Assembly: GCA_965198945.1 (NCBI GenBank)
Contig: CBDAQI010000012.1
Location: 42,910 to 106,909, forward strand
DNA from: Thermodesulfobacteriota bacterium
Lineage (GTDB): Bacteria; Desulfobacterota_D; UBA1144; Nemesobacterales; Mycalebacteriaceae
Length of the DNA: 64,000 nt
Reading direction: 5' to 3'
Shown here: piece after piece, positions 5,854-64,000 of the stretch
How the letters are laid out: every line of letters begins with the position of its first letter
How positions within the stretch are numbered: position 1 is the stretch's first letter
The notes under the pieces: model-generated
Told to the model about the DNA's origin: nothing
The model's database searches: none
What the model saw: only the letters and a program-made list of their open reading frames with translations
Made by a program: the position numbers and the translations under genes

Positions 5854-5868
5854 AGATGCGCCGGGTTG

Positions 5869-6429
5869 TTAAATTTTTGAAATCTTCGGCGGCGTAATTC
5901 CCTTCTGTTTCTGATACTTTCCCTTCTTGTCGGCATAGGATTTTTCACAGGCTTCGTCGCCTTCAAAAAACAGAACCTGTGCTATGCCCTCTCCGGCATA
6001 TATTTTTGCGGGGAGCGGGGTTGTGTTTGAGATTTCAAGCGTTACGAATCCCTCCCATTCGGGCTCAAAAGGCGTTACATTCACTATTATTCCGCAACGC
6101 GCATATGTTGATTTGCCTACACACAGGGTCAGCACATTGCGCGGGATTCTGAAATATTCAACCGTTCTTGCAAGGGCAAAGGAATTCGGAGGAATTACGC
6201 AGTCTCCTTTAATTGACACAAACGATTTTTTATCAAAGTTTTTTGGGTCAACAAAAGTGCTGTGAATGTTTGTAAAGACCTGGAATTCACTGCTCACCCT
6301 TATGTCGTAACCATATGAGGAAAGCCCGTATGATATTTTGCCCTTGCTCACTTGTGATTTCACAAACGGCTCTATCATCCCGGACTCGCGAGCCATTTTT
6401 TTTATCCATCCGTCTGATTTTATTCCCAT
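5869..6429 (-). CDS. dcd: dCTP deaminase
   Basis: 186 aa. The N-terminus [15 protein letters not shown] and the overall pattern match Dcd. Confidence 0.85.
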
Positions 6430-6456: not shown

Positions 6457-7497
6457 TTATGAAAACTGTCTTAAAAATCTTAAGTCGTTTTCAAAAAAAA
6501 GTCTTATGTCGTCAATTCCGAATTTAAGCATTGCCATCCTTTCAATCCCCATACCAAAGGCAAAACCCGAACATTCATCGGGGTCGTATCCCACATTTTT
6601 GAACACCGCCGGGTCAACCATTCCGCAACCGAGAACCTCAATCCATCCGGTTTTTTTACATACCCTGCAACCTTTCCCGCGGCATATTACGCACTCTATG
6701 TCAACCTCGGCGCTCGGCTCGGTGAACGGGAAAAAACTGGGTCTGAACCTGACATTGGGCTCATCGTCAAAGTACATGTTTATGAAGAATGTTATAACCG
6801 ATTTCAGGTTTGCAAAACTCACTTCACTGTCAACCATAAGCCCTTCAATCTGGTGAAACATCGGCGAATGGGAAACATCGCTGTCACACCTGTAAACTTT
6901 GCCCGGAACAATCACCCTCAGGGGAGGGGGCTGTTTTTCCATGACACGAATCTGAACGGGGGAGGTGTGGGTGCGCAGAACTATGTCGTCCGATATGTAG
7001 AAAGTGTCCTGCATGTCGCGCGCCGGGTGGTCTTTGGGAATGTTAAGAGCTTCAAAATTATAGTAGTCAAGCTCCACTTCGGGGCCGTCCATTATTGTGA
7101 ATCCCAGCCTCTCAAATATGCCGGAGATCTCCTTTATAACGATATTTACGGGATGAAAAGAGCCGGTCTCCGTCCCGCGTCTTCCGGGAAGAGTAACGTC
7201 TATTTTTTCCTCCGAGACCGATTTCTCAGAACTTATGCGCTTTATTTCAAGAATTTTCTTCCTTGCTGAACTCTCAATTTCGTCTCTGGACTGGTTCAGG
7301 ACGGTTCCCAGATTCCTTTTTTCTTCAATGGAAAGGTCTTTCAGAGACTTCATCATGGAAGTTACCGAGCCGTTTCTGCCCGTGTAGAGAGATTTTATTT
7401 TATGTACCGAAGACTCATCCTTTGCGCGTGCGATCTCCTCTTGCGCCTTCCCGGTTTCCCGTCTGGCGCGTTCGGCTATTTTCGCGGTTTCACTCAA
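6457..7497 (-). CDS. pheS: Phenylalanine--tRNA ligase alpha subunit
   Basis: 346 aa with class II aaRS motifs (FHPVN..., FRPSFFPFTEPSAEVD, GMGIERMAML). Confidence 0.92.
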   Translation of the reverse strand: MSETAKIAERARRETGKAQEEIARAKDESSVHKIKSLYTGRNGSVTSMMKSLKDLSIEEKRNLGTVLNQSRDEIESSARKKILEIKRISSEKSVSEEKIDVTLPGRRGTETGSFHPVNIVIKEISGIFERLGFTIMDGPEVELDYYNFEALNIPKDHPARDMQDTFYISDDIVLRTHTSPVQIRVMEKQPPPLRVIVPGKVYRCDSDVSHSPMFHQIEGLMVDSEVSFANLKSVITFFINMYFDDEPNVRFRPSFFPFTEPSAEVDIECVICRGKGCRVCKKTGWIEVLGCGMVDPAVFKNVGYDPDECSGFAFGMGIERMAMLKFGIDDIRLFFENDLRFLRQFS

Positions 7498-17636: not shown

Positions 17637-18364
17637 TATTCAGCCTTGAGATGCTCCACTCCCTGAGCTCCTGAAACCAGGATGTCGGTCGTGGTTGTGA
17701 GAAAAAGACCGTGCTCAACAATTCCCGACCTCCACACCAGAGATTCGGCGATGATTTTCAAGTCGTAGATGGGCCCGAAATCACAGTCCAGTATGTAGTT
17801 TTTCTCATCCGTTTTGAAGATTCCGCCGTTTTCATCTTTTCTGAGTTCCATTGAGGCGGCGCCCAGAGAGGAGATAAACCTCCGCGCCGGTTTTACCGCA
17901 AAAGGTATTACTTCAACTGGAAGACGGCAGCGTGTTCCCAGTTTTTCCGACAATTTGCTTTGGTCAACAACTATTATGTTTCTTGAACTTTCCTGCGCCA
18001 CAACTTTTTCGCGCAGCATCGCCCCCCCCCCCCCTTTTATGACATTGAGTTTGCGGTCAACCTCGTCCGCCCCGTCTATTGTTATGTCTATGGCCTTGTC
18101 CCGGGTGAACTCGCTGTCTATTTTAAGGCCGAGAGATTTTGCGTATTTTTCAGTCTTAATTGAGCTCGGCACACAGGCTATGTTTTCAATCAGCTCCGCG
18201 CGGAACTTTTCGGCAAGATATTCAATCGCAAAGGTGGCGGCTTTGCCCGTGCCCAAACCCACCACCATGTCCGAGCAGACAAAATCAACGGCCATTGAAG
18301 CCGATCTTTTTATTGCCTCGTCCGGAACCTCCCGCCTCGGAGGTTTGCCTTTGTAAATACCCAT
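17636..18364 (-). CDS. rpiA: Ribose-5-phosphate isomerase A
   Basis: MVVGLGTGKAATFAIEYL and the conserved KGGGGAMLREK motif. The ORF extends to 18412, but the likely start is the Met at 18364. Confidence 0.88.
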   Translation of the reverse strand: MGIYKGKPPRREVPDEAIKRSASMAVDFVCSDMVVGLGTGKAATFAIEYLAEKFRAELIENIACVPSSIKTEKYAKSLGLKIDSEFTRDKAIDITIDGADEVDRKLNVIKGGGGAMLREKVVAQESSRNIIVVDQSKLSEKLGTRCRLPVEVIPFAVKPARRFISSLGAASMELRKDENGGIFKTDEKNYILDCDFGPIYDLKIIAESLVWRSGIVEHGLFLTTTTDILVSGAQGVEHLKAE

Positions 18365-49754: not shown

Positions 49755-50662
49755 TGACAAATAATAATTTGCCTTTGGTGAGTGTTATCATTCTTTCGTA
49801 CAACAGAAAGAATTGGTTGAGGCAGAGTTTGGATTCAATATTAGGTCAGGATTACCCAAATATTGAAATAATTGCTTGTGATGATGCTTCCACAGACGGA
49901 AGCCAGGATGTTTTGCGTGAGTATAAAGAGAAAAATTCCCACAGAAGGTTTGTTCTGTCTCTTTCACCTCAAAACGATGGAATCACGGCAAATCAAAACA
50001 AAGGACTTTCTCTTTATCAGGGCAAATATGTTGTTTTCTCTGCGGATGATGACATTATGCTTCCGAGTAAAATTTCCAAGCAAGTTCAATTTATGGAGAA
50101 TGACCCCGACTGTTCAATTTGTTACCACAATATGGAAGTTTTTTATGATAACACAAATAAAATTTTGAAGTTTTTCAACAATAAAAAAAACAGCCACGAA
50201 GGCGGCGTGGAACTTGCTATAAAATACGGGATGTTTTGCGGAGCTCCTTCATGCATGTTCAGGGCTGAAAAAATTCCCGACGATGGCTGCAATCCCATAA
50301 TTACCAATGCGTCTGATTGGCTTCTTGTGATAGAAGTTTTAATAGGGGGAGGCAGTATACGCTACATTGACGAAATTCTTGTGAGATACAGGAGACACAT
50401 TAACGCCGATTCCATGAAAACCTATGACATGAATCCCGGCGATTTGGATACCCTGAATATATGTAACATTTTAATTACAAAATATCCTCATCTTTTCAAT
50501 GAGGCAATTTATGCATATTCAAGATCCCTTGAAAAACTCAGAAATAAAAAAGGAATTAATTATATGTCCGCTCTAATATCCAGCCTGCGACTGAGATTCA
50601 GGCTGAGTGCATTTGTTAGATTGCTTGCCTGTCTTTTTTCATTTGGCAGATTTAAATCTTAA
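49754..50662 (+). CDS. Family 2 glycosyltransferase
   Basis: VSVIILSYNRKNWL...ACDDASTDGS and a DDD motif. The region is low-GC. Confidence 0.85.
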   Translation: MTNNNLPLVSVIILSYNRKNWLRQSLDSILGQDYPNIEIIACDDASTDGSQDVLREYKEKNSHRRFVLSLSPQNDGITANQNKGLSLYQGKYVVFSADDDIMLPSKISKQVQFMENDPDCSICYHNMEVFYDNTNKILKFFNNKKNSHEGGVELAIKYGMFCGAPSCMFRAEKIPDDGCNPIITNASDWLLVIEVLIGGGSIRYIDEILVRYRRHINADSMKTYDMNPGDLDTLNICNILITKYPHLFNEAIYAYSRSLEKLRNKKGINYMSALISSLRLRFRLSAFVRLLACLFSFGRFKS

Positions 50663-50671
50663 AAGACTTTT

Positions 50672-51796
50672 TTATAGACCAACCTTCTCAAAAATTCTCT
50701 GGGATCTTTCCGCCATTTTTTCAATGTTGAAATTTTCCGCGTGTTTTTTTGCGGCCCCGCCCATTTTTTTTGCCGTCACTTTATCCTCAATAAGTCTCAA
50801 TATCGCCCCTGCCATTGCCTTTGGAGAATTCACCGGAACTAAAAGACCGCTTGCGCCGTCTTGAATAATTTCATCCGCTCCGAATGGGTGGTTTGTTGAC
50901 ACAATCGGCATTCCAAGCACGGCGGCTTCAATCAGCGAGTTTGAAAACCCCTCCTGTTCGGACGGGCAGACGAACACATCGCACTTCGCGGTAAATCTGT
51001 GCGGATTTTTTTCCCGTGACAGAAAATCTATTTTGTCAGAGATTCCGATTTCCCGCGCATGAGCCATGAGCTCTTTTTTGGATTTCCCGTCTCCCAGAAC
51101 CAGAAGACGCACGGATTTTTTCTCGTTCACTATTTTCAGCGCTTCAATCAAATCTCCAACCCCTTTGTGAGGCGCAAGGCGGCAGACTGATATTATCAGC
51201 GGCGTTTCCGCTCCAAACCATTTGTGCTCGGCATTTTCACTTGATTTGCTCTCTATTCCTTTTGTGTCTATGCAGTTATAAGCGATTTCGGGAGTCTTTT
51301 TCAGTTTATACATATCCCGAATTTCATCGGCGAGACCTTTTGAATTCGCGGTTATCAAATCCGCATGGCTTACGGCAAGACGGTGCGCAAGAAACAGAAG
51401 CGGATTTGTTTTTTTCAAAAACATTGCTCCGTTTCCCTCACTCCAGACAGTTCTTATTCCAAAAAATTTCCCGATTATAACATTCGGGATTTTCGTCCAA
51501 TGCCTTGAGTAGAGAATGTCCGGTTTTTCTTTTGACACCGAACGTGCAAGGGCGAAAATTCCCCAGATAACCGACAGGAAACGGAACTTTTTAATAAACG
51601 AAGGGTGGCATGGGCTTGCAACTTTGACTGCAGAGTGGATTTCATTGTCAATTTCTCCGCGTTCAAGCGTGAAAATTAAGCACTTTACACCTCTTCTGGA
51701 AAGACCGTTTGCGATTGCAACCGTCTGTTTTTGGGCGCCGCCGAGGCTGAGGTTGGGCAGGGAAAGAAAAACTGAAAAATTTTTTCTGTCACTCAT
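50672..51796 (-). CDS. Family 4 (GT-B, group 1) glycosyltransferase
   Basis: A C-terminal EGFSNSLIEAAVLGMPIVST-type motif (E-x7-E). The protein is 374 aa. Confidence 0.8.
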   Translation of the reverse strand: MSDRKNFSVFLSLPNLSLGGAQKQTVAIANGLSRRGVKCLIFTLERGEIDNEIHSAVKVASPCHPSFIKKFRFLSVIWGIFALARSVSKEKPDILYSRHWTKIPNVIIGKFFGIRTVWSEGNGAMFLKKTNPLLFLAHRLAVSHADLITANSKGLADEIRDMYKLKKTPEIAYNCIDTKGIESKSSENAEHKWFGAETPLIISVCRLAPHKGVGDLIEALKIVNEKKSVRLLVLGDGKSKKELMAHAREIGISDKIDFLSREKNPHRFTAKCDVFVCPSEQEGFSNSLIEAAVLGMPIVSTNHPFGADEIIQDGASGLLVPVNSPKAMAGAILRLIEDKVTAKKMGGAAKKHAENFNIEKMAERSQRIFEKVGL

Positions 51797-51868
51797 AACT
51801 CTTACGGGTCAGAATACTTTTGCGGAAGCGTATTCTTATCAGTCTCAACGGGCAAGCGCTTTGTCCGC

Positions 51869-53122
51869 TCACTCATGTCTCAACGCTTCCACAGGATTCA
51901 TTATTGACGCTTTTCTTGCGGGATAAATTCCGAAGAAAACACCCACAAGGGCGGAAAAACCGCAAGCGACCAAAACCGCTGAAAACGATATTTCAGCGGG
52001 CCAGCCCGTGAACAGAGAGGCGGTTTTTGAGATTGCGGCTCCAAGTATTATTCCCGCAATTCCCCCGACGAGTGAAAGCGTGAGAGATTCAACGAGAAAT
52101 TGCCTCATTATGTCTTTCCGCCTTGCTCCGACAGCCATTCTTATTCCTATCTCCTTTGTCCTTTCGCTGACCGAAACCAGCATTATATTCATAATTCCCA
52201 CACCTCCCACTATAAGAGATATTGACGCGATACTAATAAGCAGAATTTTCAAAATCTGTGTTATTTCGGCTATTCGTTCAAGATTCTGCGAGTTGTTCCT
52301 GATGGCAAAATCATCTTTGTCTTCAGTTCCTATTTTATGATTCTTTCTCAAAACAATGTTAATCTCCGCAATCGCCTCCATTATCCTGTCCGCGCTTCTG
52401 ACCGCAAGAGAGATTTTTTCAATGTTTTTTTCCGAAAGCACTCTTTTTTGCAAGGTTGAATAGGGCATCAGAATTATATCGTCCTGGTCTATTCCGTTCG
52501 GTTTTACTCCGAGTTTCTGCATAGTTCCCACAACCTCACAGGTAAGATTGTCTATTCTTATTTTTCCACCCATCGCAGATAACGTTCCAAACAGTTTTTT
52601 CTCAACGGTTTTACCCACCACACAGACCGGACGCGAATTTTCCGTATCATCGGAACTGAAAAAAGTTCCGCTTACGGGGAACCAATCATTGATAAAAGTA
52701 AAATCCCGCGAAACTCCGACAATTTTTGTGTCCCACTGGTTTTTACCGTAAACGACCGTTTTCTGCGTTCCGATGATTTCAGAAACAAATTCAACACTCG
52801 GCAGCCTCCTTATTGAATCCGCGTCCCGAACGGTAAGGGGTTTGCCGCCCGAAAACCTGAACGGATTCCCGCTCGGACGCACCGTGCTTATAAGCATTGA
52901 TTTCCCGCCCAGGCGCTCAAATTGCTCGCCTATCATCCTGCTCGCCCCTTGAGTTGTGGACACAAGCGACACCACAGCGGCGACTCCGATTATCACTCCG
53001 AGAGAGGTGAGCAACGAGCGGGCTTTGTTTGACATAATTGCCCTGTAGGCGATTGTTAAAGATCTGAAAGGCGGCATGGCTTTTGCCTGATTATAATACA
53101 GAAAAGGGCTTTGCGTCCGCAA
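51869..53122 (-). CDS. ABC transporter permease, MacB/LolE-like (FtsX domain)
   Basis: N-terminal TM, a periplasmic MacB_PCD-like domain and a C-terminal FtsX 3-TM bundle. No adjacent ATPase gene. Confidence 0.75.
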   Translation of the reverse strand: MRTQSPFLYYNQAKAMPPFRSLTIAYRAIMSNKARSLLTSLGVIIGVAAVVSLVSTTQGASRMIGEQFERLGGKSMLISTVRPSGNPFRFSGGKPLTVRDADSIRRLPSVEFVSEIIGTQKTVVYGKNQWDTKIVGVSRDFTFINDWFPVSGTFFSSDDTENSRPVCVVGKTVEKKLFGTLSAMGGKIRIDNLTCEVVGTMQKLGVKPNGIDQDDIILMPYSTLQKRVLSEKNIEKISLAVRSADRIMEAIAEINIVLRKNHKIGTEDKDDFAIRNNSQNLERIAEITQILKILLISIASISLIVGGVGIMNIMLVSVSERTKEIGIRMAVGARRKDIMRQFLVESLTLSLVGGIAGIILGAAISKTASLFTGWPAEISFSAVLVACGFSALVGVFFGIYPARKASIMNPVEALRHE

Positions 53123-53168
53123 ATTTAGAGTTCAGGCGGCAAAAAGCCGCACGTGAGCGGGGCGGCTT

Positions 53169-54761
53169 TCAGTCAAAACTTCTGTAACGCCCCTTTTGAA
53201 TTATCACTACCGCCAGCAGGCGAAGTGCGAGCCCCAGGGCGCACGCCGTTATAAGAAGCATTCCAAGCTCCGAATAGTTCGCTGCGGTTTGTATGATTTG
53301 AGTCGCTCCGTTTCTGATTTCGCGCGTTACGACAAAGATTTCATTCATATATTTTGTTCCGAGGCTGCTTGCCGACAGTGAAATGTTTGAAAATGACGCA
53401 AAGACTGCAAAAAAGGTCGCTTTGAGGTGTTCCGGGGCGTTTTTTGCTATCCATGCAAGCATTGGTATCATCGCCACCTGTCCGAACGGGGATTCAAGAG
53501 CCGTGTTTACGATCGCTATGAACTTTGCATCCACGACTCCGTTTGTGTGTGCGGCGGTCCATTCATGAATTCCGTAAAAAAGCCCGATTCCGGGAAGCGC
53601 CATAACCGCATCAAGAATTGATAAAAACAATATGATGCCCACTATGCTGACCCTGCTCATCAGCGGCAGAGAGACCATCATTCCCACAAGCGTGAAAACG
53701 GAAACTATCAGATACAGATAAGACAGAAATTGCTCGTCAAACCCGAGTTCGTCTATTTGAAACCATCCCTCTCCCGGTCCCACTCCCGGAACGGCACGAA
53801 AAACAAAAATGATCACCGCCGTTCCTATGAGTGTCGCTCGTGATTTGTCCGGCAGTTCGGCAATCAGTTTTCTCATAAGGAAGATGATGATTGCCATTGA
53901 ACCCGCAAAAACTATTTCCTGGGAATAGGCTATTCCCGAAAGTCCCGTTCCGATTGTGAACGCCACAAAAATCATGCTTCCGCCGAGAATCCACCAGTTG
54001 ACCGAAATATTGGAATTTTCTCTTTCCCTGCTTATTCTGCCCTTCCTTTTAAGAAATTCGGCGAAAACAACTCCAATTATGGAGACAAGAGGAATTGCAA
54101 GCGCCATAAGATAGATATTGCCGTAAGTGATGACTTTCTGTTCCTCGCTCAGTTCTGAGACTCCGCTGAAAGCTATGATATTGATTATTGAAACCAGAAC
54201 GGTGCCTCCGATAATCGCTACTCTGCCGAGAGTCTGCATTGTGGTATGCATGGATTTCAGGGTTTTTTCATCAAATTTTTCACCGTTTTCATCTTTTTCG
54301 GGAACTGCCTCAACGGTCATCGCGTCTGCAACCACATCCTGAAGCATGTATCCAACCGGGCTTATAATTACGCTCAGAATAAACCAGCTTGAACCCGACA
54401 TGAACTGTTTCATATAAGCGGTGTGCGCTATCAGACCGTAGACAATCAGAAGTCCCGCCGAAATCAGCGCCGCCCCTAAGAAAATCAGTATGGATTTCCA
54501 GCGCCATATCAGGTCAACAATGTGTCCGATTGGCATTTTCAGAGCCCACGGAAGGCCCGCCCAGAAGCCCAGTCCCGCGAGGAAAGCGGCCGACAGATCA
54601 AGGTAGTCTTTGATAAAAAATGTGCCGACAATTCCGGTAATTCCCGATATTCCGGCCGCCAGATACACCATGAGCGGCGGGATGTAGCTAAGCCGCATCT
54701 GTCTGAAAAGATTTATGAGATCGGTTGCGAAGGATATGAAATTGCGGATTAGTCTATTCAT
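53169..54761 (-). CDS. Folate-biopterin transporter (BT1/FBT family MFS)
   Basis: FIKDYLDLSAAFLAGLGFWAGLPWALKMPIGHIVD matches the BT1-family YLKDDL..LPW.iKP.yG..SD signature. There are about 12 TM helices. Confidence 0.7.
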   Translation of the reverse strand: MNRLIRNFISFATDLINLFRQMRLSYIPPLMVYLAAGISGITGIVGTFFIKDYLDLSAAFLAGLGFWAGLPWALKMPIGHIVDLIWRWKSILIFLGAALISAGLLIVYGLIAHTAYMKQFMSGSSWFILSVIISPVGYMLQDVVADAMTVEAVPEKDENGEKFDEKTLKSMHTTMQTLGRVAIIGGTVLVSIINIIAFSGVSELSEEQKVITYGNIYLMALAIPLVSIIGVVFAEFLKRKGRISRERENSNISVNWWILGGSMIFVAFTIGTGLSGIAYSQEIVFAGSMAIIIFLMRKLIAELPDKSRATLIGTAVIIFVFRAVPGVGPGEGWFQIDELGFDEQFLSYLYLIVSVFTLVGMMVSLPLMSRVSIVGIILFLSILDAVMALPGIGLFYGIHEWTAAHTNGVVDAKFIAIVNTALESPFGQVAMIPMLAWIAKNAPEHLKATFFAVFASFSNISLSASSLGTKYMNEIFVVTREIRNGATQIIQTAANYSELGMLLITACALGLALRLLAVVIIQKGRYRSFD

Positions 54762-55147
54762 TTTTTAGGAAGGCGGGTTTTGAAGCCAAGAGGGTAATTT
54801 ATTGGATGTTTTTTGCAAATTGGCTTGGTAGGAGGGAGTGAAAATTTTCCGTAGTTAAGTTTTTCTTCCTGAAAAGATTTCAGGTTGTGATTTTTTGCCG
54901 ACAATTACATTATGAATACTGGATTCCCGTTTGCAAGGGAATGACGATGGGGAGTTTTTCCCGCAATTCCCATTTTCCCGTCATTTCCGCAAAAGCATGT
55001 CCCCGTGAAAGCTTGTCCTCATGAAAATGGGGACGGCAATTCAGAAGGCATGGGGAGCAAAACATAGCAAGCGGGACACCAAGTCATATTTCACTCAGTT
55101 CAAACAGAAGTATGAACAGGGGGGTGAGCGGAGCCGAACCCCGAAAC

Positions 55148-55447
55148 GTTGTGAATTGAGGGCAGGTTTCAGTCAGTTACAATTCCTTGAGTTGTCCACA
55201 ATTTTCAACACTAGTTGTGAATTGAGGGCAGGTTTCAGTCAGTTACAATCTGGGAGCAAAGCGAATGGGGGGCGAAACAGTTGTGAATTGAGGGCAGGTT
55301 TCAGTCAGTTACAATTCCTTGAGTTGTCCACAATTTTCAACACTAGTTGTGAATTGAGGGCAGGTTTCAGTCAGTTACAATCTGGGAGCAAAGCGAATGG
55401 GGGGCGAAACAGTTGTGAATTGAGGGCAGGTTTCAGTCAGTTACAAT
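55148..55447 (+). CRISPR. CRISPR array with five 36-bp direct repeats (GTTGTGAATTGAGGGCAGGTTTCAGTCAGTTACAAT) and four 30-bp spacers. Spacer 1 equals spacer 3 and spacer 2 equals spacer 4.
   Basis: Repeats lie at 55148-55183, 55214-55249, 55280-55315, 55346-55381 and 55412-55447 and are identical. The spacers are tccttgagttgtccacaattttcaacacta and ctgggagcaaagcgaatggggggcgaaaca, each present twice. The array is adjacent to cas2. Confidence 0.95.
55157..55183 (+). promoter_or_regulatory. Putative repeat-embedded sigma70-like promoter (TTGAGG, 16 nt, TACAAT). It recurs in every CRISPR repeat.
   Basis: Within the repeat, TTGAGG sits at repeat positions 9-14 and TACAAT at 31-36, 16 nt apart. The arrangement resembles the repeat-internal promoters described for Neisseria type II-C arrays. 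Confidence 0.45.
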
Positions 55448-55497
55448 AGCTATCCCTCAAATGCAATGGTGGCAAGGGGTTATGGCTCTCCGGCAAA

Positions 55498-55827
55498 TCA
55501 AAAAAGAGTGATTTGCTGGGGAGTTGTCTCCGCCTTCTTCCGTTTCTTCCCATAAAACACCTGCATTCGTCCGAACTGTTTGTCCGTAATAATAATCACC
55601 CGCACTTCTCCTTGCGGAGGCAGCCACTCTCTCACTCTTCCCGAATGAACAAATGCATTTTCTTCACTTGCGCAATGTCTGGCATATACGGAGAACTGCA
55701 TCATTATAAATCCGTCCCGCATAATATGCTTTCTAAATCTTGCGTAGTCTTTCCGTGCCTTCTTCGTGTCTGTTGGAAGGTCAAACATCACTATTACCCA
55801 CATAGTTCTGTATCCTCCGAAAGCCAT
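55498..55827 (-). CDS. cas2: CRISPR-associated endoribonuclease Cas2 (type II)
   Basis: VIVMFDLPTDTKKARKDYARFRKHIMRDGFIMMQFSVYARH parallels S. pyogenes Cas2 ([39 protein letters not shown]). Confidence 0.92.
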   Translation of the reverse strand: MAFGGYRTMWVIVMFDLPTDTKKARKDYARFRKHIMRDGFIMMQFSVYARHCASEENAFVHSGRVREWLPPQGEVRVIIITDKQFGRMQVFYGKKRKKAETTPQQITLF

Positions 55828-55829
55828 TT

Positions 55830-56738
55830 CTAAACCTCAATTCTCATTTGTCTGTTTTCAATCAGTTCCGGTATTTTCAAACACTCAACCCCTTCTGAAA
55901 AAGCTTTCTTAAGGCTCGCCGCCATATGCTGGTTTGCCACCATCATCGGCAGTTTCTTTCCTTCAAACAGAACATCTTCTGAAAGAAGAGACAGCAATGA
56001 CATTTTTGTTGTAGTATCAATCTCATTTCTCCCATGCTCGTTCAGTTCATAAACACGTCTGTCAACAAGAGGACGCAACGGTTCAATAAGGTCGTCCGCA
56101 AGGCACATCGGGTTATATTGGTTGTGGTGATGAATCCCGAGCGCCGGATGAAGCCCCGTTCCGCACAAAGCACGGGCGACGGATGCTCTGACGATGCTGT
56201 ATCCGTAGTTGAGTAGAGAGTTGATTCCTTCTTCTTTGTAATTTCTGGAAAACTGTTTTCCAAACAGTTTTGACCAGTATACCCTCGCCGCCTGCGCCTC
56301 AATATTTCTCGTGTCACCGCTTAAGACTCTTTTTTTGAATCCGGGAAGAGGGGAGGGGTCTTTTTTGAAAAAAAGCAGTGTCCGAATCTGTGCTTCTGTT
56401 TTGGCAATTATGACTTTCTGCCAGAGTCGTTTTTTTAGAGGTTTTTTGACGCCCGTCTGTAAATTGAGGACTTTGCTGTGGGTTGAATTGCCGGAAAGGG
56501 GTAGCAAAACGGAAACCGGAAGATGGCTCCGGTCACAAAAAACTATTATGCAGTTGTTTTTCTGACATTCGGCTATGAGGCTCTGAGAGATTGAAATTGC
56601 GGGATTGGCAAGTATGAGAATTCCCATGTCTTCTACGGGAATACTGCTTTCTTTTTCACCGTCTTTTTTGATAATCATCTGATAATCTTTCAGATGAAGA
56701 TATGCAGGGTTGCTGACTTCAGTGATTCGCTTGATCAT
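55830..56738 (-). CDS. cas1: CRISPR-associated endonuclease Cas1 (type II)
   Basis: 302 aa. ...VYWSKLFGKQFSRNYKE...NYGYSIVRASVARAL...HHHNQYNPMCLADDLIEPLRPLVD matches the type II Cas1 catalytic core. Confidence 0.92.
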   Translation of the reverse strand: MIKRITEVSNPAYLHLKDYQMIIKKDGEKESSIPVEDMGILILANPAISISQSLIAECQKNNCIIVFCDRSHLPVSVLLPLSGNSTHSKVLNLQTGVKKPLKKRLWQKVIIAKTEAQIRTLLFFKKDPSPLPGFKKRVLSGDTRNIEAQAARVYWSKLFGKQFSRNYKEEGINSLLNYGYSIVRASVARALCGTGLHPALGIHHHNQYNPMCLADDLIEPLRPLVDRRVYELNEHGRNEIDTTTKMSLLSLLSEDVLFEGKKLPMMVANQHMAASLKKAFSEGVECLKIPELIENRQMRIEV

Positions 56739-56744
56739 TATGGA

Positions 56745-59700
56745 CTAAATTGTGTTTGTAAGGCTAAAACCTAAAGAGTTAATGGACTCTTTTTGCAATT
56801 TGTATTTAGTCATTAGGATGGAAATTGTCCTGCTTAGTTTTTCTTCATTATTATCGAGCGTGGCGGCGGAGTGAAGTCTTAGCCATAGTATTTCTCCTTC
56901 TCTTTGGAATTTTTGCACTCTGTAAAATCTTCTTTCTCCTTTTTCTTCTACACTTACCGTATCATTTATGCACAAGCTCATAATAAATTTCCAGTCTTCT
57001 CCATGGTCAGTTTTAACAATCGGTTCTCTTGTAATTCTTACTTTTTTTTGCGGCTTCCATTGTGGTTACAAAAACACCTTTGGATCTGTTTGTTTTTTTA
57101 TTCTTGATTATTTCTACATGGTGGCTGTTTCCATAAATCATTACACTTAATATTTTGTTACTGTTTTTCTTGGGTTTAAGCCAGTAATTTTTTTCACTAA
57201 ACTCATTAGTTACCCAAACTTTTGCCCGTCTGACAATATCTCCGGTTTTTGGATGCTTAAAAGCTTCTTCTTGCAGTTTTTTTTGAGCGCTTTTTAAGCC
57301 TCCTCTCATATTTACATATTGTTCAAATCCTTCTCTGATTGCCGGACATACTATATTTCTCAAATTTTTGTCCGTCATACCAGTCAGATTTTTGCTAACG
57401 ACGATTCTCTTTTTACCATTGTCTTCTTTTATTCCATATGCGGTATCTTCATGGAATGCTCCCGTCAGTTTTCTATTTGTCGCGTGAGAGACAATCATTT
57501 TATTTGTCGCGCTTTCCAACTCATTCCTAAGGTTTTCAAGCACCTGCGGTATTTCCAATCCCGATTCTGGAGATATGGAATCATCATCCGCTTTTGAAGC
57601 GAGATGTACCACCTTTTGATATAGGCTTCTGTTTGTAAGGGCAATGACCGTTGCGTCAATCGCGTGATGCCTATGGTCGTTACGGTTTTTCTCTCCCGTA
57701 TCTCCAAGGATGTTGTTCAGTCCCCATTGTCTTCGGAGCCAGCTTGTTATTCCGCCTTTGGTGAAAGTTACATCACAGCCGAGTGTTCTAATGTAATTTC
57801 CCGTTTCTTTTGCGATATAGCGGGCGTCTGATAACTGGCTGTTGATGAAATCTTCAATTCCATCCAACTTTTTTGTCAGAATTTTTCTGCGTTTTGCTTC
57901 GGGATAATTCTTGAGTTTTGCTATGGCTTCAATATTTTCCCATTGCTCTGTATTACCAAATGCTTCCCATGGTGTTCTGTTGCCTTTCTTCCTATTTTCC
58001 TCCGCAAGACAGACCGTCTTGTTCATATAGTAATTATCAAGACTCCTGCTGTATGGGAGTATGTGGTCTATTTCAACATCAGCAGACCAGAGTTGTGTCA
58101 GTCCTATAGGTTTCCCACTGTATAAACATTTACCTTCATTTTCTTTCCAGAGTCTGTATTTCTGTTTGTCCTGATGGCTTATGTATGTTTTCAACTGCAG
58201 GCCGGGTTCCTGCTCTTTTATGCTGTTGTATTTTTCTTCCGCTTCTTCATTTTCTTCTGTGTTTTTCTTTTGTCTTTCCAGTGCTTTTCTGTATTTCTCC
58301 GTATTCATTTCCAAATCACGAGACATTTCTATTCGTATCGCGGTTGGTTTTCCATATTCTTTGATAATTGCATTTACGACACGGCGAACTTCATATAACG
58401 CCTTTGTAACAATGGGGTTTGGTATAAAGGGAATTTCTCCAAGAGTTTCTTTGTTTCCGGTTTCCGGCGTTGTAATATCTTCGTAACCGGCAATTTGAAC
58501 CGCTCCTTTTTCTTCTTCTATGTCACTTTCTCGGCTGTAAACCCTGCCTTGCTTAAGGTGAGGCAGAATTTTGTTTATTGCTTTCAGGGACAGATTTCCG
58601 TGTCCCTTTTCCAATTCAAGAACCGCAAGTTTTGTTGCTTTTTCCGAGTCAATATCCGGGTAGTTTTGAAGACGTTTTTTCAGTCCCTTTTTGGATTCGT
58701 ATGAAATCAGATCTTCCACAAGCTGTTTTTGTTTTTTCTCATCAAAGGAGTCCCACAAGTCTCCAATTATTTCTCTGATTCCACAGGCGGTTTTGTTTCC
58801 CTGAATGCCTTTTCTGCTTTTTCCTTCAACTTTGTACAAATTGAACTTTGTTTTCTTATTCAGGTTGAGGATTTCTTTTCCTCTGATCTTTGCCCATGTC
58901 AGATTTCTGTTTTTTTTCAAGTGCTTCGGCAATCAGTTTTTTCTGATCTGGCGAGGGTTTTGCATCTTTTTCTCCCGTTTCAGTGTCATCCCAACTTAAA
59001 TTGTTTATGTCCTGCCAGTAACGGAATTGCTGAAACTCAAGTCGTCCCATATCTACTCTTCTCTTTTTTGGTTCAAGAGAGCAGTTTCCTATGGTTTTCT
59101 TGTCCCAGGTTACGGGACGTTGGTGAAAGATAATTTTCTCAATTGCGCTTCTTACATCTTCAGTGTAAATCTTCGGGTTTAGTTCGGACTGTTTACGGAA
59201 GATTTTTTCAAACTCTTCCTGATACATTCTGCGGTCTGTTCTGAGGTCATGAAGTTCTCCTCTGTTGCGTTTTCGGGGCAGGGTTGCAAGATACTCACCG
59301 AGAGTCCTTTTCCCATTTTCGCTTATCTTCTCTCGGAGCTTTTTAATATCTTCTTTGAATTTGCCTTCATCTTTGTCGGTTTCCGCGGCTTCGTCTTCAA
59401 TTTCAAGGATTTCCCGCGCTTCCAAATCTTCACGCAAGTTTCCAAATCCCGTTTTGCGGTTGCTTAAAAATCCCCGTCGTGTTCCCAGATGCATTATTGC
59501 GCGTCCAAACTCATGTGGGGTCAAAATATCATCTAATCCTTTCGCTCTTATCTGATATGGATCTCCAAGCTTATTAAATTCCGATTCCAGGTTTGGCTCG
59601 TCTTTGAGCGTCTCCGGCAGAAATCCCCTGCTTATAAGGTAGTTGCGAAGACGCAATTTACGTCTGTGCCGCCGTTCAATGACACGCCTTAAAAGACGTT

Positions 59701-59884
59701 TTGCTCTGCGGTGTTGGTTTTTCGGAGTGGGTGTTTTGTCTTCAACGGAGCGTATGAATATACGGCTTCCACAATCAATAAAATTTTTCGGTTTGCCTTG
59801 TTCTTCCTCAATGACGCTCCAGCCGATTGAGTTTGTGCCCATATCAAGACCAATTGCATATTCAGATAGTTTTGTCTTTTTCAT
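56745..59884 (-). CDS. cas9: Cas9 (compact, type II-C-like, about 1046 aa). Its reading frame is split into three ORFs by two single-base frameshifts in A8/T8 homopolymers, at about 58910-58917 and 57042-57049.
   Basis: N-terminal RuvC-I motif YAIGLDMGTNSIGWSVIEE in ORF 58856..59884. HNH motif (DHILPYSRSLDNYYMNKTVCLAEENRKKGNRTPWEAF) and RuvC-III in ORF 57013..58932. The C-terminal PI-like tail is ORF 56745..56981 (...LWLRLHSAATLDNNEEKL...). Removing one A from each A8 run joins the three frames seamlessly. Confidence 0.9.
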
Positions 59885-59934
59885 TTTCTCATCCCTTGAC
59901 AGAATTTTTTCTGTAGTATAGTAATATTAGTATA

Positions 59935-60053
59935 TTATAATTGACTGAAACCTGTCCAAGCATTTTTTCTATTCATAACAAGAAACTAATGTTTCGCAGG
60001 ATAACCAGGGTAAACCTAATCGCCTCTCGCCTTAGGGCAGGGGCGATTTTTTT
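59935..60053 (+). ncRNA. Putative tracrRNA, encoded divergently from cas9
   Basis: An anti-repeat at 59943-59985 (TGACTGAAACCTGTCC...ATTCATAACAAG) is complementary to the 5' half of the CRISPR repeat, with a central bulge. A TATAAT at 59936-59941 overlaps its start. A downstream hairpin TCGCC-N10-GGCGA plus a T7 run (60047-60053) looks like an intrinsic terminator. Confidence 0.7.
60021..60053 (+). terminator. Rho-independent terminator of the putative tracrRNA
   Basis: GC-rich hairpin (ctcgcc ttagggcagg ggcga) followed by ttttttt. Confidence 0.6.
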
Positions 60054-60093
60054 ATCTTCTTTCAAGTATGTAAACTCACTTCCGTAGCAAAAA

Positions 60094-61527
60094 ATGAAAA
60101 TCCCTCTCCAATTTCAATCCGATTTCCCCCCTGCGGGCGAGCTTGAAGTCACAACCCCTTTTAACGGTCAAGTTATCGCAACTGTGGAAACGGCCGGGGA
60201 AAAACATCTGGACGGTCTTTTTGAAACCGCAAAAAAACTTTATGAAAACCGTGAGGGCTGGCTTACCGTTCACCAAAGGGCGCAAATTCTGGAACGGGCT
60301 TCTTCAATAATCACCGAACGCATGGACGATTTGATAATTCAGGCGGCGCGTGAGGGTGGAAAACCCTATAACGATTCAAAAGTGGAAATTTACAGAGCGG
60401 CGGACAGCGCAAAAATCGCCGCGGAAACAATTCGCACCGAAGCGGGAAATGTTATTCCGATGGGCGGTGATCTTTACAGCGCGAACAGAGCGGCTTTTAC
60501 ACAAAAAGAGCCGATTGGGGTTGTCGTTGCGGTCAGCGCTTTTAATCATCCGCTTAACCTTATAGTTCATCAGGCGGGCGCCGCAATTGCCGCCGGATGT
60601 CCGGTTATCATCAAGCCCGCGAGTGAAACGCCGCTTTCATGCATATCCTTCAAAAACATACTCGTTGAAGCGGGGCTGCCGCCCGACTGGTGTCAGGTTG
60701 TTGTTACCGATTCAAACGAAACGGCTCAACTGCTCGCAACCGACAGGAGGACGGCGTTTTTCAGTTTTATAGGAAGCTCGCGGGTCGGCTGGATGCTGCG
60801 CTCCAAACTCGCTCCGGGAACACGCTGCGCCCTTGAACACGGCGGAGTGGCGCCGGCGCTTGTGTATGAAGACTCGGATATTGAACGCACCGCGTCTCTG
60901 CTTGCCAAAGGAGGCTTCTATCACGCGGGGCAGGTTTGCGTTTCCACCCAGCGCGTCTATGTGCAAAAAAATATCGCACCGAACTTTCTCTCATTTTTCC
61001 GCAGCGAAGCGGAAAGTCTTAAAGTCGGAGACCCCGCGCTTGAATCAACTCAAGTGGGGCCGCTTATCCGCCCGTCGGAAGTCAGGCGCGTTCACGAGTG
61101 GGTTTGTGAGGCCGTCAGCGAGGGAGCTGAACTTGTCTGCGGCGGAAACATTCTGTTTGACAGATGTTACGAACCGACCATTTTGCTCAACCCTCCGGAT
61201 GCCGTTCGCGCCAGCCGTGAGGAAATTTTCGGTCCCGTGGTCTGCGTTTATGAGGTTGACGACATGGAAGATGCGATTGCGCGCGCGAACGGTCTTGGCA
61301 TGGCGTTTCAATCTTCGGTTTTTACAAAAAATCTTGACACCGCTCTTGCCGCCGTGAAAAAATTGAGCGCTTCAGGCGTTATGGTGAATGATCACACCGC
61401 GTTCCGCATAGACGGAATGCCCTTCGGAGGGCTGAAGCAGTCCGGCCTCGGAACCGGCGGCATTCCGCACACAATCAGAGATATGAGCATGGAGAAAATG
61501 GTTGTTTTCCGCTCAGACGCGATTTAG
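60094..61527 (+). CDS. NAD(P)-dependent aldehyde dehydrogenase family protein
   Basis: 477 aa with the ALDH family pattern (catalytic region ...EHGGVAPALV..., GQVCVSTQRVYV with the catalytic Cys, and a glycine motif). Confidence 0.85.
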   Translation: MKIPLQFQSDFPPAGELEVTTPFNGQVIATVETAGEKHLDGLFETAKKLYENREGWLTVHQRAQILERASSIITERMDDLIIQAAREGGKPYNDSKVEIYRAADSAKIAAETIRTEAGNVIPMGGDLYSANRAAFTQKEPIGVVVAVSAFNHPLNLIVHQAGAAIAAGCPVIIKPASETPLSCISFKNILVEAGLPPDWCQVVVTDSNETAQLLATDRRTAFFSFIGSSRVGWMLRSKLAPGTRCALEHGGVAPALVYEDSDIERTASLLAKGGFYHAGQVCVSTQRVYVQKNIAPNFLSFFRSEAESLKVGDPALESTQVGPLIRPSEVRRVHEWVCEAVSEGAELVCGGNILFDRCYEPTILLNPPDAVRASREEIFGPVVCVYEVDDMEDAIARANGLGMAFQSSVFTKNLDTALAAVKKLSASGVMVNDHTAFRIDGMPFGGLKQSGLGTGGIPHTIRDMSMEKMVVFRSDAI

Positions 61528-61537
61528 TTTTTCCGTT

Positions 61538-62325
61538 TTACAAGTTTCCGCCGCAAACCTTTTCCGCATATCGCTCGGCGGCCTCGGCGATTTCCGGAAG
61601 CGGTTTGTTCAGTGAAATTCTCACCAGTTCCGCGCAGGCGGACTTCAAGTCTCCGGTTCTCACTTGAGCGTCCGCCAGATTCAGCCGGGCTTCATTGTAT
61701 CCCGGAGCGAGTTCCAGAGCCGATTTGAACTGTTTTACGGCTCTTTTTCCCTTGAAAGTTTTACAAGCAGTTTCCCGTATTCGTTTCTGGAATAAATATT
61801 TGACGGCTCAAGTCTGATTGATTGTTTGAAAAAGCGCTCGGCGGAAACCGGATCACCTTTCATTTCATACCCTCTTGCAACGTTGACAAGCGCAGCGTAA
61901 CGAAGAGGATAGCCGATGTCTTGTGTTACAATCAGGCATTGCTCAATTGCTTCATCAAATTTGCCCGTTTTAATATACAAACCGCAAAGGTTGTATCGGG
62001 CTTTTGCATAGTCGTTTTTAATCTCAAGAGCTTTTTTGTAGCTCATTTCCGCGGCGGCAAATTCCCGCAGACCGAAATACGCTATCCCCTTTATCAAATA
62101 CAGTTCGGGATCGTCTTCGTTTTGGACTTCAGCTTTTTTCATTTCTGTTATGGCCCCCGTAAAATCCCCTCCCCGCACATATGAAGCGGCGAGATTTTTA
62201 CGGTTGCGCAGAGTCATGGGAGCGTTTTTTTGCGGCTCCTCCGCAGGAACAAAAAAGCAGCGGAAGGGCGAGAAGCGCTGAAAAAAAGCCGAACTGTTTT
62301 TTCCCATTAAAACGCATTGCCGCAA
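61538..62325 (-). CDS. Tetratricopeptide-repeat protein. The frame is broken by a 1-nt frameshift near 61755-61765 (GGGAAAAA tract).
   Basis: ORF 61735..62325 carries several TPR units. The 3' continuation in the adjacent frame (…AVKQFKSALELAPGYNEARLNLADAQVRTGDLKSACAEL…) is clearly TPR-like and runs to a TAA at 61538. Confidence 0.7.
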
Positions 62326-62331
62326 GCGGGG

Positions 62332-63234
62332 TTATATTTGAGACATCCTGAAAAAGTCGCCCAGACGGCTTTCAAATTGGTCTTTTTTCAGGTTTTTTAT
62401 GCTTTCAGTTCCGAGTTTTTCCACCGTGAAAGAAGCAAGCACTGAGCCGTGAATAACGGCTCTTTTCAGATTTTCATGACCGTTATGTCCGTTTTCACTC
62501 AAATATCCCATAAACCCGCCCGCAAAAGTGTCTCCGGCTCCGGTCGGGTCAACCGCCCGCTCCACCGGATATGCGGGTGAGCAGAACATTCCTTTGTCAG
62601 AGACCATCATGCAGCCGAATTCCCCTCTTTTGATTATGACAATTTGCGGCCCCATTTTCCTTATCGCGCGCGCCGCCGCAATCGTGGAAGACTCTCCGCT
62701 CAGAGACAGCGCTTCGGAATTATTTATTATCAGTATGTTGACCATTTTCAGAGTTTTTTTAAGGTCCGGCAGGCTGTTGTCTATCCAGAAGTTCATCGTG
62801 TCACAAGCGACAATGCGCGGTGATTTCATCTGTTTGATAATTTCCATCTGTATTACCGGGTCCATGTTTGCAAGAAACACGGACTCCGCATTTCTGAGAC
62901 GTTCAGACAGATTCGGTCTGAAGTTTTCAAACACATTGAGATTGACGGAAAGCGTCTCCGGATCAGGTATGTTTCCGGAGTATCTGCCTTTCCAGCGGAA
63001 AGTTTTTCCGTCCGCGGTTTCAAGGCCCCGTGTGTCAACTCCGGCTTTCCTGAGAAGGTCTGAGTGCGGAGCCGGAAAGTCTTTTCCTATCACCGCCGAG
63101 ATGCTCACTTTTGTGAACAGAGACGCGCCGAGGCATGAATACACCGCGGAGCCGCCGAGGACTTCCTCGCCTCTGTCAAGCGGTGTTTCTATGGAGTCAA
63201 TCGCCACCGTTCCCACTATCAAAAGTTTGCTCAT
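62332..63234 (-). CDS. PfkB-family carbohydrate/nucleoside kinase
   Basis: 300 aa with a ribokinase-like fold and the DPTGAGDTFAGGFMGYL anion-hole/catalytic motif. Confidence 0.8.
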   Translation of the reverse strand: MSKLLIVGTVAIDSIETPLDRGEEVLGGSAVYSCLGASLFTKVSISAVIGKDFPAPHSDLLRKAGVDTRGLETADGKTFRWKGRYSGNIPDPETLSVNLNVFENFRPNLSERLRNAESVFLANMDPVIQMEIIKQMKSPRIVACDTMNFWIDNSLPDLKKTLKMVNILIINNSEALSLSGESSTIAAARAIRKMGPQIVIIKRGEFGCMMVSDKGMFCSPAYPVERAVDPTGAGDTFAGGFMGYLSENGHNGHENLKRAVIHGSVLASFTVEKLGTESIKNLKKDQFESRLGDFFRMSQI

Positions 63235-64000
63235 TTGGTAAACCTCTCTATTATTATTCCGAGCCTTTTTTTCGCATCGTCACTGATGGCTTCGGGCGGA
63301 GTGATAATTGCGTTTTCAAGAGCGCAGTCACAGGCGCAGTCTCTTGTTTTTCCGAGCTTTTCCAGAGTTTTTTTGATGATTTTTTTTGCGGTTTCAACAT
63401 TGCTTGAGAGAATCTCTATCACATCTTCCACGGTTACCGCATCGTGCCCCTCCCGCCAGCAGTCATAGTCGGTCGCCATTGCGAGGGTTGCGTAGCACAT
63501 CTCGGCCTCTCTTGCGAGTTTTGCTTCGGGCATGTTTGTCATGCCTATTATGTCAACTTCCCAGTTTTTGTAGAGAATGCTTTCAGCGCGTGATGAAAAC
63601 TGCGGGCCTTCAATGCAGATGTATGTTCCACCTTCGTGTGTTGCCGCTCCGGCGCCGGACGCGGCTCCGAGAAGCTCCGCCGCAAGTTCCCCGCAAACCG
63701 GCTCCGCCATTGATATATGAGCCGCGACTCCGTTTCCGAAAAATGAGTTTTCTCTTTTTTTTGTATGGTCTATGAACTGTGACGGGACGACAACATCTCC
63801 CGGTCTGATGTGCTCTCTCATGCTTCCCACGGCGCTGACGGAGATTATTCTCTCCACTCCCAGACTTTTCAGCGCATAAATGTTTGCCCTGTAGTTTATT
63901 TCGGATGGAAGAACCGTGTGGCTGAGTCCGTGACGGGGAAGAAACGCCACATTTGCGTCTCCGACCGTCCCGGTCATTATGGGAGCCGAGGGTTTCCCCC
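63231..64000 (-). CDS. mtnP: S-methyl-5'-thioadenosine phosphorylase / purine nucleoside phosphorylase family protein. The 5' end lies beyond the window.
   Basis: ...SAPIMTGTVGDANVAFLPRHG...PSEINYRANIYALKSLGVERIISVSAVGS matches the MTAP/PNP-I family. It continues upstream of the ORF's first Met to the window edge. Confidence 0.8.
   Translation of the reverse strand, partial: GKPSAPIMTGTVGDANVAFLPRHGLSHTVLPSEINYRANIYALKSLGVERIISVSAVGSMREHIRPGDVVVPSQFIDHTKKRENSFFGNGVAAHISMAEPVCGELAAELLGAASGAGAATHEGGTYICIEGPQFSSRAESILYKNWEVDIIGMTNMPEAKLAREAEMCYATLAMATDYDCWREGHDAVTVEDVIEILSSNVETAKKIIKKTLEKLGKTRDCACDCALENAIITPPEAISDDAKKRLGIIIERFTK

What the first reader, a model, noticed from the sequence alone, without database searches (positions are those of the whole stretch)
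55148..55447. CRISPR array in which a spacer-repeat-spacer-repeat unit (132 bp) is tandemly duplicated
Only two distinct spacers exist, in the order A-B-A-B. Adaptation inserts unique spacers, so the identical duplication of a two-spacer block points to a recombination/slippage event between repeats or to an assembly collapse or expansion. If real, it doubles the dosage of two crRNAs.
Basis: seen in the sequence. Interest (0 to 1): 0.55.

Follow-up and report, generated by a model that had tools for sequence, protein, structure and literature searches.

The report
Duplicated spacer block in CRISPR array
This is a genuine small type II-C CRISPR array in which a two-spacer block has been copied once. 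That is a known, occasional by-product of recombination or slippage between identical repeats, and here it sits beside a cas9 gene that looks broken, so it is ordinary and probably has no functional effect.

Summary
Window 55148-55447 holds five identical 36-nt repeats separated by four 30-nt spacers in the order A-B-A-B, and the 132-nt unit 55148-55279 recurs at 55280-55411 with 100% identity.

It is a real CRISPR array:
- cas2, cas1 and cas9 lie directly beside it on the minus strand, with no csn2 or cas4, which is the type II-C gene set.
- A tracrRNA candidate conserved in one relative sits upstream of cas9.
- The same repeat occurs next to cas2 in seven loci from related uncultured bacteria. 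Four of these hold complete arrays (3, 5, 11 and 19 spacers), and no spacer is duplicated in any of them.

The best explanation is one unequal recombination or replication-slippage event between repeats of an ancestral R-A-R-B-R array. This class of event is documented: about 3% of spacers in CRISPRCasdb are duplication candidates.

An assembly artefact cannot be excluded, because no reads and no second assembly of this organism are available.

cas9 carries two +1 frameshifts in A-runs, while a 13-nt G-run in rpiA and about 18 other long homopolymer runs elsewhere are in frame. The "doubled crRNA dosage" therefore probably has no effect.

Neither spacer has a detectable target. Interest is low.

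The parts
55148..55447 (+). CRISPR array: 5 identical 36-nt repeats (starts 55148, 55214, 55280, 55346, 55412) and 4 spacers of 30 nt, in the order A-B-A-B
55148..55279 (+). Copy 1 of the 132-nt duplicated unit (repeat, spacer A, repeat, spacer B). This is the cas-distal, older end.
   Evidence: 100% identical to 55280-55411
55280..55411 (+). Copy 2 of the 132-nt unit, followed by the terminal repeat at 55412-55447
55184..55213 (+). Spacer A, first copy (second copy at 55316-55345). No protospacer found.
55250..55279 (+). Spacer B, first copy (second copy at 55382-55411). No protospacer found.
55448..55497 (+). 50-nt flank between the last repeat and the cas2 stop codon. It is conserved in L001 and L002 and is the presumed integration (leader-like) side of a II-C array.
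   Evidence: alignment A1. The cas-distal flank is not conserved. Polarity follows PMC12080349.
55498..55827 (-). cas2 (109 aa, intact)
   Evidence: PF09827, 3.2e-18; TIGR01573
55830..56738 (-). cas1, type II (NMENI) subfamily (302 aa, intact)
   Evidence: PF01867; TIGR03639, 286 bits against a cutoff of 120
56745..59884 (-). cas9 split into three reading-frame pieces by two +1 frameshifts in A8 runs (plus-strand T8 at 58910-58917 and 57042-57049). Removing one A from each run gives a 1045-aa Cas9.
   Evidence: 71% identity end to end with the intact 1062-aa Cas9 of L002; TIGR01865, 657 bits
59930..60053 (+). tracrRNA candidate: anti-repeat with an internal bulge, downstream hairpins and an intrinsic terminator. 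The ends are approximate.
   Evidence: terminator 60027-60046 plus a T-run; conserved in L002; duplex -41.8 kcal/mol against -13.5 +/- 3.2 for shuffled repeats
55070..55105 (+). Possible degenerate ('fossil') repeat, 20/36 identical with 11/12 in the 3' half. Weaker in-phase matches start at 54810, 54876 and 54938. A spacer-B-like 17/21 stretch lies at 55045-55064. This is weak evidence.

Best explanation
A small type II-C CRISPR array that once read repeat-A-repeat-B-repeat was expanded by a single unequal homologous recombination or replication-slippage event. The third repeat misaligned with the first, 132 nt away, and the product was repeat-A-repeat-B-repeat-A-repeat-B-repeat. The array is read on the + strand, towards cas2. 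As in other II-C systems, each repeat ends in a -10-like TACAAT that could start a crRNA inside the following spacer, so the duplication would nominally double the templates for crRNA-A and crRNA-B. However, cas9 in this genome carries two +1 frameshifts, so interference is probably off. Spacer acquisition is probably off as well, because type II adaptation needs Cas9 (from my own knowledge, not tested here). The duplication is therefore best seen as neutral repeat-mediated turnover in a locus that is no longer, or not currently, functional. What the sequence shows directly: the array structure, the cas genes, the tracrRNA pairing and the frameshifts. What is inferred: the recombination mechanism, promoter use, and the absence of a functional consequence.
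For: The structure is exact, with both junctions inside identical repeats. The CRISPR identity rests on Cas2, Cas1 and Cas9, the tracrRNA, and the same repeat next to cas2 in seven related loci. Four of those loci hold complete arrays of 3, 5, 11 and 19 spacers, and no spacer is duplicated in any of them. Polarity: the cas-proximal flank is conserved. In L002 the three cas-proximal repeats share a derived G11A change while the distal repeat does not. PMC12080349 states that II-C spacers enter at the last repeat and that each repeat carries its own promoter. A promoter-like TTGAGG-16-TACAAT site is present in every repeat. Duplication is the commonest non-canonical event in arrays: about 3% of spacers are duplication candidates, 86% of those are simple duplications and about 1% are re-acquisitions (PMC11472070); 1-11% of spacers are duplicated within arrays (PMC4524480). 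The assembly appears homopolymer-accurate. A G13 run in rpiA is in frame, about 18 other runs of 8 nt or more lie inside intact ORFs, and the housekeeping genes tested give full-length domain matches. This argues that the contig is of good quality and that the cas9 lesions are real.
Against: There are no reads and no independent assembly of this organism. The exact Cas2 sequence is recorded on only one 147,963-bp contig, and the look-ups of window proteins returned nothing, so the repeat count cannot be verified. No strain with the un-duplicated A-B array was found. The 100% identity of the two copies fits a very recent event but fits an assembly expansion equally well. The -35-like part of the repeat promoter is not conserved among relatives. 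No expression data exist.
Confidence: 0.72

Rival explanations
1. Assembly artefact. The true array is R-A-R-B-R (or has another copy number), and the assembler expanded or mis-resolved the 132-nt tandem unit.
For: The two copies are 100% identical. The source appears to be a single metagenome-derived contig with no second assembly. CRISPR arrays are known trouble spots for assemblers (noted in PMC4524480).
Against: By general assembler behaviour (my inference, not a tool result), repeat collapse is the usual error and expansion is rare. The whole array is only 300 nt and would be spanned by single long reads or read pairs. The contig reads a 13-nt G-run and about 18 other long homopolymer runs in frame, and its housekeeping genes are intact, so it is not a low-quality consensus.
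Confidence: 0.2
2. Independent re-acquisition. Spacers A and B were each captured twice from the same invader, in the same order, by normal adaptation.
For: Repeated capture of favoured protospacers happens in type II systems (from my own knowledge). Re-acquisitions are recorded at about 1% of duplicate events (PMC11472070).
Against: It requires two coincidences: the same two 30-mers with identical boundaries, and the same order. cas9, which type II adaptation needs, is frameshifted. Simple duplication is roughly 80-fold more frequent than re-acquisition among duplicate events.
Confidence: 0.03
3. Selected dosage increase. The block duplication was retained because two extra repeat-promoter units raise the level of crRNA-A and crRNA-B against a prevalent invader.
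For: Each II-C repeat can act as a promoter, so template number should scale with copy number.
Against: cas9 carries two frameshifts. No target was found for either spacer. None of the related arrays shows a duplication.
Confidence: 0.05

Closest known systems
[quoted passage not shown]
   Same: The gene set is cas9-cas1-cas2 only. The repeat is 36 nt, starts with GTTGT and ends with TACAAT, and the spacers are 30 nt. The array lies after cas2 and is read towards it. A -10-like box ends each repeat, a tracrRNA carries a bulged anti-repeat, and spacers enter at the cas-proximal (last) repeat (the comparison with the Neisseria repeat sequence is from my own knowledge).
   Different: The host is an uncultured lineage. 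The nearest records are labelled as a Thermodesulfobacteriota MAG and 'Candidatus Mycalebacterium zealandia'. The tracrRNA lies upstream of cas9 and is transcribed divergently from it. cas9 is frameshifted twice. The array holds only two distinct spacers.
Spacer or spacer-block duplications catalogued in CRISPR arrays (SpacerPlacer analysis of CRISPRCasdb; Kupczok et al. 2015)
   Same: Identical spacers recur within one array, and the breakpoints lie in repeats. The events are attributed to replication misalignment or recombination between repeats.
   Different: Here the duplicated block is the entire spacer content of the array, and the neighbouring effector gene is disrupted. No phylogenetic series of arrays is available to place the event in time.

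Membership tests
CRISPR array | Regularly spaced, near-identical direct repeats of 23-55 nt separated by spacers of similar length | tested here: met
   5 identical 36-nt repeats with a 66-nt period and 30-nt spacers
CRISPR array | Spacers differ from one another | tested here: not met
   Only 2 distinct spacers among 4. Related arrays with the same repeat show no duplicated spacer, so this is a secondary change and not evidence against CRISPR identity.
CRISPR array | Association with cas genes | tested here: met
   The cas2 stop codon lies 50 nt from the last repeat, followed by cas1 and cas9
Type II-C CRISPR-Cas | cas9, cas1 and cas2 present, with no csn2 (II-A) and no cas4 (II-B) | tested here: met
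   The locus is bounded by a BT1-family transporter gene and an aldehyde dehydrogenase gene. No further cas gene lies between them. Cas1 matches the type II NMENI model. The PADLOC Cas9 models do not separate subtypes.
Type II-C CRISPR-Cas | tracrRNA with an anti-repeat complementary to the crRNA repeat | tested here: met
   Anti-repeat at about 59937-59978. Duplex energy is -41.8 kcal/mol against -13.5 +/- 3.2 for shuffled repeats. A terminator follows. The region is conserved in L002.
Type II-C CRISPR-Cas | Intact Cas9 reading frame | tested here: not met
   Two +1 frameshifts in A8 runs. The frame is restored by removing one A from each. The locus belongs to the family by descent but is probably not functional.
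Type II-C CRISPR-Cas | Promoter within each repeat, with crRNA 5' ends made by transcription initiation | not testable with these tools
   Only a consensus match, TTGAGG-16-TACAAT, in each repeat. TACAAT is invariant in the relatives' repeats but the -35-like part varies. No RNA data are available.
Repeat-mediated spacer-block duplication | Duplicated unit is a whole number of repeat-spacer units, with its junctions inside repeats | tested here: met
   132 nt = 2 x 66. The copies 55148-55279 and 55280-55411 are identical.
Repeat-mediated spacer-block duplication | An un-duplicated ancestral array exists in close relatives, or reads support the copy number | not testable with these tools
   No second record of this organism exists. 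The nearest Cas2 found is only 86% identical, and the seven related loci share no spacer with the window.

The most novel reading that the evidence does not exclude
The locus may show how an array behaves once adaptation and interference are lost: it changes only by repeat-mediated duplication and deletion. Three things would fit this. The block duplication is perfect. The flank on the old end of the array holds hints of decayed, in-phase repeats and a spacer-B-like remnant (54810-55147). A second lineage with the same repeat also has a broken cas9 (L003). A related variant of this reading is that the A-run frameshifts are reversible on/off switches for cas9.
Probability: 0.07. Interest if true: 0.4.

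Novelty: new member of a known kind. Interest (0 to 1): 0.15.

Why it matters
It matters little beyond annotation. It adds one more example of spacer-block duplication, in a type II-C locus of an uncultured marine or sponge-associated lineage, and it shows that a duplicated-spacer array can sit beside a disrupted cas9. In practice, spacer-based strain typing or host-virus linking should count two spacers here, not four, and the locus should not be scored as an active defence system without checking cas9.

Tried and rejected
**Rejected: not CRISPR, only a minisatellite.** The array has adjacent cas genes, a tracrRNA, and the same repeat in relatives whose spacers are not duplicated.

**Protospacer searches found nothing significant.**
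- Window, at up to 8 mismatches: only the array copies themselves.
- The seven related loci: no match.
- IMG/VR, exact 30-mers and the 3' 20-mers of both spacers: 0 hits.
- Phage and plasmid BLAST: every hit had E >= 0.4.

**No independent assembly of this organism was found.** Exact look-ups of Cas2, Cas1, the aldehyde dehydrogenase, transketolase and P0001 were all "not on record". The repeat scan of genome and metagenome contigs returned only other species, L001 and L002.

**Rfam found nothing** at E <= 1 in 50000-64000.

**Largely rejected: the cas9 frameshifts are generic homopolymer sequencing errors.** A G13 run and about 18 other runs of 8 nt or more are in frame, and the nine housekeeping ORFs tested give full-length domain matches.

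**Rejected: the A-runs are conserved contingency tracts.** They are absent at the same sites in L002.

**Rejected as chance: the left flank is a third copy of spacer B.** The 42 nt before repeat 1 are not B-like (p = 0.58). Only the stretch at 55045-55064 is B-like (p about 0.005).

**Rejected as spurious: ORF 55021-55449 (+).** It runs through the array and is taken as a by-product of the repeats.

Full report
**Observation**

The region 55148-55447 contains five exact copies of the 36-nt sequence GTTGTGAATTGAGGGCAGGTTTCAGTCAGTTACAAT, spaced 66 nt start to start. Shuffled sequence gave no match at up to three mismatches. The four 30-nt intervening sequences are of only two kinds:
- A = TCCTTGAGTTGTCCACAATTTTCAACACTA
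- B = CTGGGAGCAAAGCGAATGGGGGGCGAAACA

They occur in the order A-B-A-B. The 132-nt unit 55148-55279 is repeated at 55280-55411 with 100% identity, and Tandem Repeats Finder reports a 132-nt period with 2.3 copies.

**It is a CRISPR array**

Three cas genes lie immediately to the right, on the minus strand:
- cas2 at 55498-55827 (PF09827, TIGR01573).
- cas1 at 55830-56738 (PF01867; TIGR03639, the type II NMENI Cas1, 286 bits).
- cas9, with HNH_4, RuvC_III and Cas9 alpha-helical-lobe matches.

The locus is bounded by a BT1-family transporter gene on the left and an aldehyde dehydrogenase gene on the right. It has no csn2 or cas4, so its gene content is type II-C.

A tracrRNA candidate lies upstream of cas9 on the + strand, at about 59930-60053. 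It has an anti-repeat interrupted by a bulge, further hairpins, and an intrinsic terminator at 60027-60046 followed by a T-run. The predicted repeat:anti-repeat duplex is -41.8 kcal/mol, against -13.5 +/- 3.2 for shuffled repeats. The anti-repeat and the adjacent 40 nt are almost identical in a relative whose Cas9 is only 71% identical.

Because the anti-repeat is on the + strand, the crRNAs must also be read from the + strand, towards cas2. Each repeat ends in TACAAT, preceded at 16 nt by TTGAGG. This matches the published II-C architecture, in which every repeat carries its own promoter and new spacers enter at the last repeat (PMC12080349).

**Relatives**

- The exact repeat was found in one genome record, L001, a MAG labelled Thermodesulfobacteriota with 5 spacers.
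- It was also found in one metagenome record, L002, with 3 spacers. Its Cas2 is named in NCBI as from 'Candidatus Mycalebacterium zealandia'.
- Cas2 homologues led to five further loci with the same or a 1-2 nt variant repeat. L007 has 19 spacers, all 29-30 nt, and an intact 1040-aa Cas9. L003 has 11 spacers. L004-L006 are contig-end fragments.
- None of these arrays contains a duplicated spacer, and none shares a spacer with the window.
- The 50 nt between the last repeat and cas2 are conserved across species, whereas the cas-distal flank is not.
- In L002 the three cas-proximal repeats share a derived G11A change that the distal repeat lacks.

The flank conservation and the G11A pattern both place the integration end next to cas2, so the repeat at 55148 is the oldest.

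**Mechanism**

The duplicated unit is exactly two repeat-spacer periods and both junctions lie inside identical repeats. The simplest history is an ancestral R-A-R-B-R array in which the third repeat misaligned with the first, during replication or recombination between sister chromosomes, giving R-A-R-B-R-A-R-B-R.

This event class is documented:
- In CRISPRCasdb about 3% of spacers are duplication candidates. Of these, 86% are simple duplications and about 1% are re-acquisitions, and the authors attribute them to replication misalignment between repeats (PMC11472070).
- Kupczok et al. found 1-11% duplicated spacers within arrays (PMC4524480).

Independent re-acquisition of both spacers in the same order is therefore much less likely.

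**Is it an assembly artefact?**

I could not test this directly. The only record of the exact Cas2 sequence is one 147,963-bp contig. Exact look-ups of four window proteins, plus a repeat look-up of Cas2 by its protein id, found no contig.

Indirect evidence favours a sound assembly:
- The nine housekeeping ORFs tested give full-length domain matches.
- A 13-nt G-run encoding the KGGGGA motif of rpiA is in frame.
- About 18 other homopolymer runs of 8 nt or more lie inside intact long ORFs.

Assemblers usually collapse tandem units and rarely expand them; that is my inference, not a tool result. I put the artefact reading at about 0.2.

**Functional context**

cas9 is split into three frame pieces: 59884-58856, 58932-57013, and a C-terminal piece ending at 56745. 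Both breaks lie in A8 runs. Deleting one A from each run gives a 1045-aa protein that aligns end to end with the intact 1062-aa Cas9 of L002 at 71% identity, and it scores 657 bits on the Cas9 equivalog model. There are no other stop codons, so the lesions are recent.

cas9 holds only 3 of the roughly 21 coding runs of 8 nt or more, yet it holds both frame-breaking ones. By my calculation, the chance of that is about 1.4%. I therefore think the frameshifts are real mutations and not random consensus errors.

With Cas9 absent, crRNA-guided interference is lost, and so is type II adaptation (established knowledge, not tested here). No target was found for either spacer in the window, the related loci, IMG/VR, or the phage and plasmid collections.

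**Weak observations in the old-end flank**

The 387-nt gap between the BT1 gene and the first repeat is much longer than in L002, where it is about 110 nt. It also lacks the conserved element and hairpin that L002 and L007 have at that position.

- It contains four non-overlapping ungapped matches of 18-20/36 to the repeat, starting at 54810, 54876, 54938 and 55070. Four such matches have a probability of about 0.002-0.004 against shuffles.
- Their offsets from 55148 are 8, 8, 12 and 12 modulo 66, which means they are nearly in phase with the array.
- A 17/21 match to spacer B lies at 55045-55064 (p about 0.005).

This could be a decayed older part of the array, but the best single match is only 56% identical, so I treat it as a lead and not a finding.

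**Verdict**

It is an ordinary example of a known kind of array rearrangement, in a probably inactive type II-C locus. Interest is low (0.15). Confidence is 0.72 that it is a genuine repeat-mediated duplication and 0.2 that it is an assembly artefact.

Noticed in passing
window 56745-59884 (-); frameshift sites at 58910-58917 and 57042-57049: cas9 is interrupted by two +1 frameshifts, both in A8 runs. Removing one A from each restores a full-length 1045-aa Cas9 that is 71% identical to the intact orthologue in L002. Elsewhere in the window long homopolymer runs are in frame, so this looks like recent pseudogenisation. Much less likely, it is an on/off switch.
   Followed up: yes
window 59930-60053 (+): A tracrRNA candidate lies upstream of cas9 and is transcribed divergently from it. 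It has a bulged full-length anti-repeat, conserved hairpins and a terminator. Rfam found nothing in 50000-64000, a range that includes this site.
   Followed up: yes
window 54810-55147 (+): Four weak matches to the repeat (18-20 of 36) lie nearly in phase with the 66-nt period, and a 17/21 match to spacer B lies at 55045-55064. They may be a decayed older part of the array. The flank is unrelated to the corresponding flank in L002 and L007.
   Followed up: partly
window 18022-18034 (C13 on +; G13 in rpiA on -): A 13-nt G homopolymer run encodes the conserved KGGGGA motif of ribose-5-phosphate isomerase A and is in frame. It is an unusually long run for an essential gene, and a useful indicator that the assembly reads homopolymers accurately.
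   Followed up: partly
L003 871-4092 (cas9) and 5381-6188 (array): A relative with the identical repeat has cas9 broken into at least three frame pieces, and the one lesion I worked out is a single-base insertion that is not in a homopolymer run. Its 11 spacers have irregular lengths of 29-43 nt, instead of the 29-30 nt seen in L007.
   Followed up: partly
L002 550-786: The oldest (cas-distal) repeat keeps G at position 11, while the three cas-proximal repeats carry A. This is consistent with spacer integration, and repeat copying, at the cas2-proximal end.
   Followed up: yes
L007 about 6630-6670 (transcriptionally upstream of the oldest repeat): A near-perfect hairpin, CCGAAATCACAAG...CTTGTGATTTCGG, directly abuts the oldest repeat. 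It resembles the terminators reported upstream of II-C arrays that block extraneous crRNA (PMC12080349). The window has no counterpart at that position.
   Followed up: no
window 54992-55040 (+): A short 16-nt tandem repeat (AAAGCATGTCCCCATG, 2.2 copies) and a GTCCCC...GGGGAC inverted repeat lie in the flank, along with recurring ATGGGGA motifs. Their meaning is unknown.
   Followed up: no
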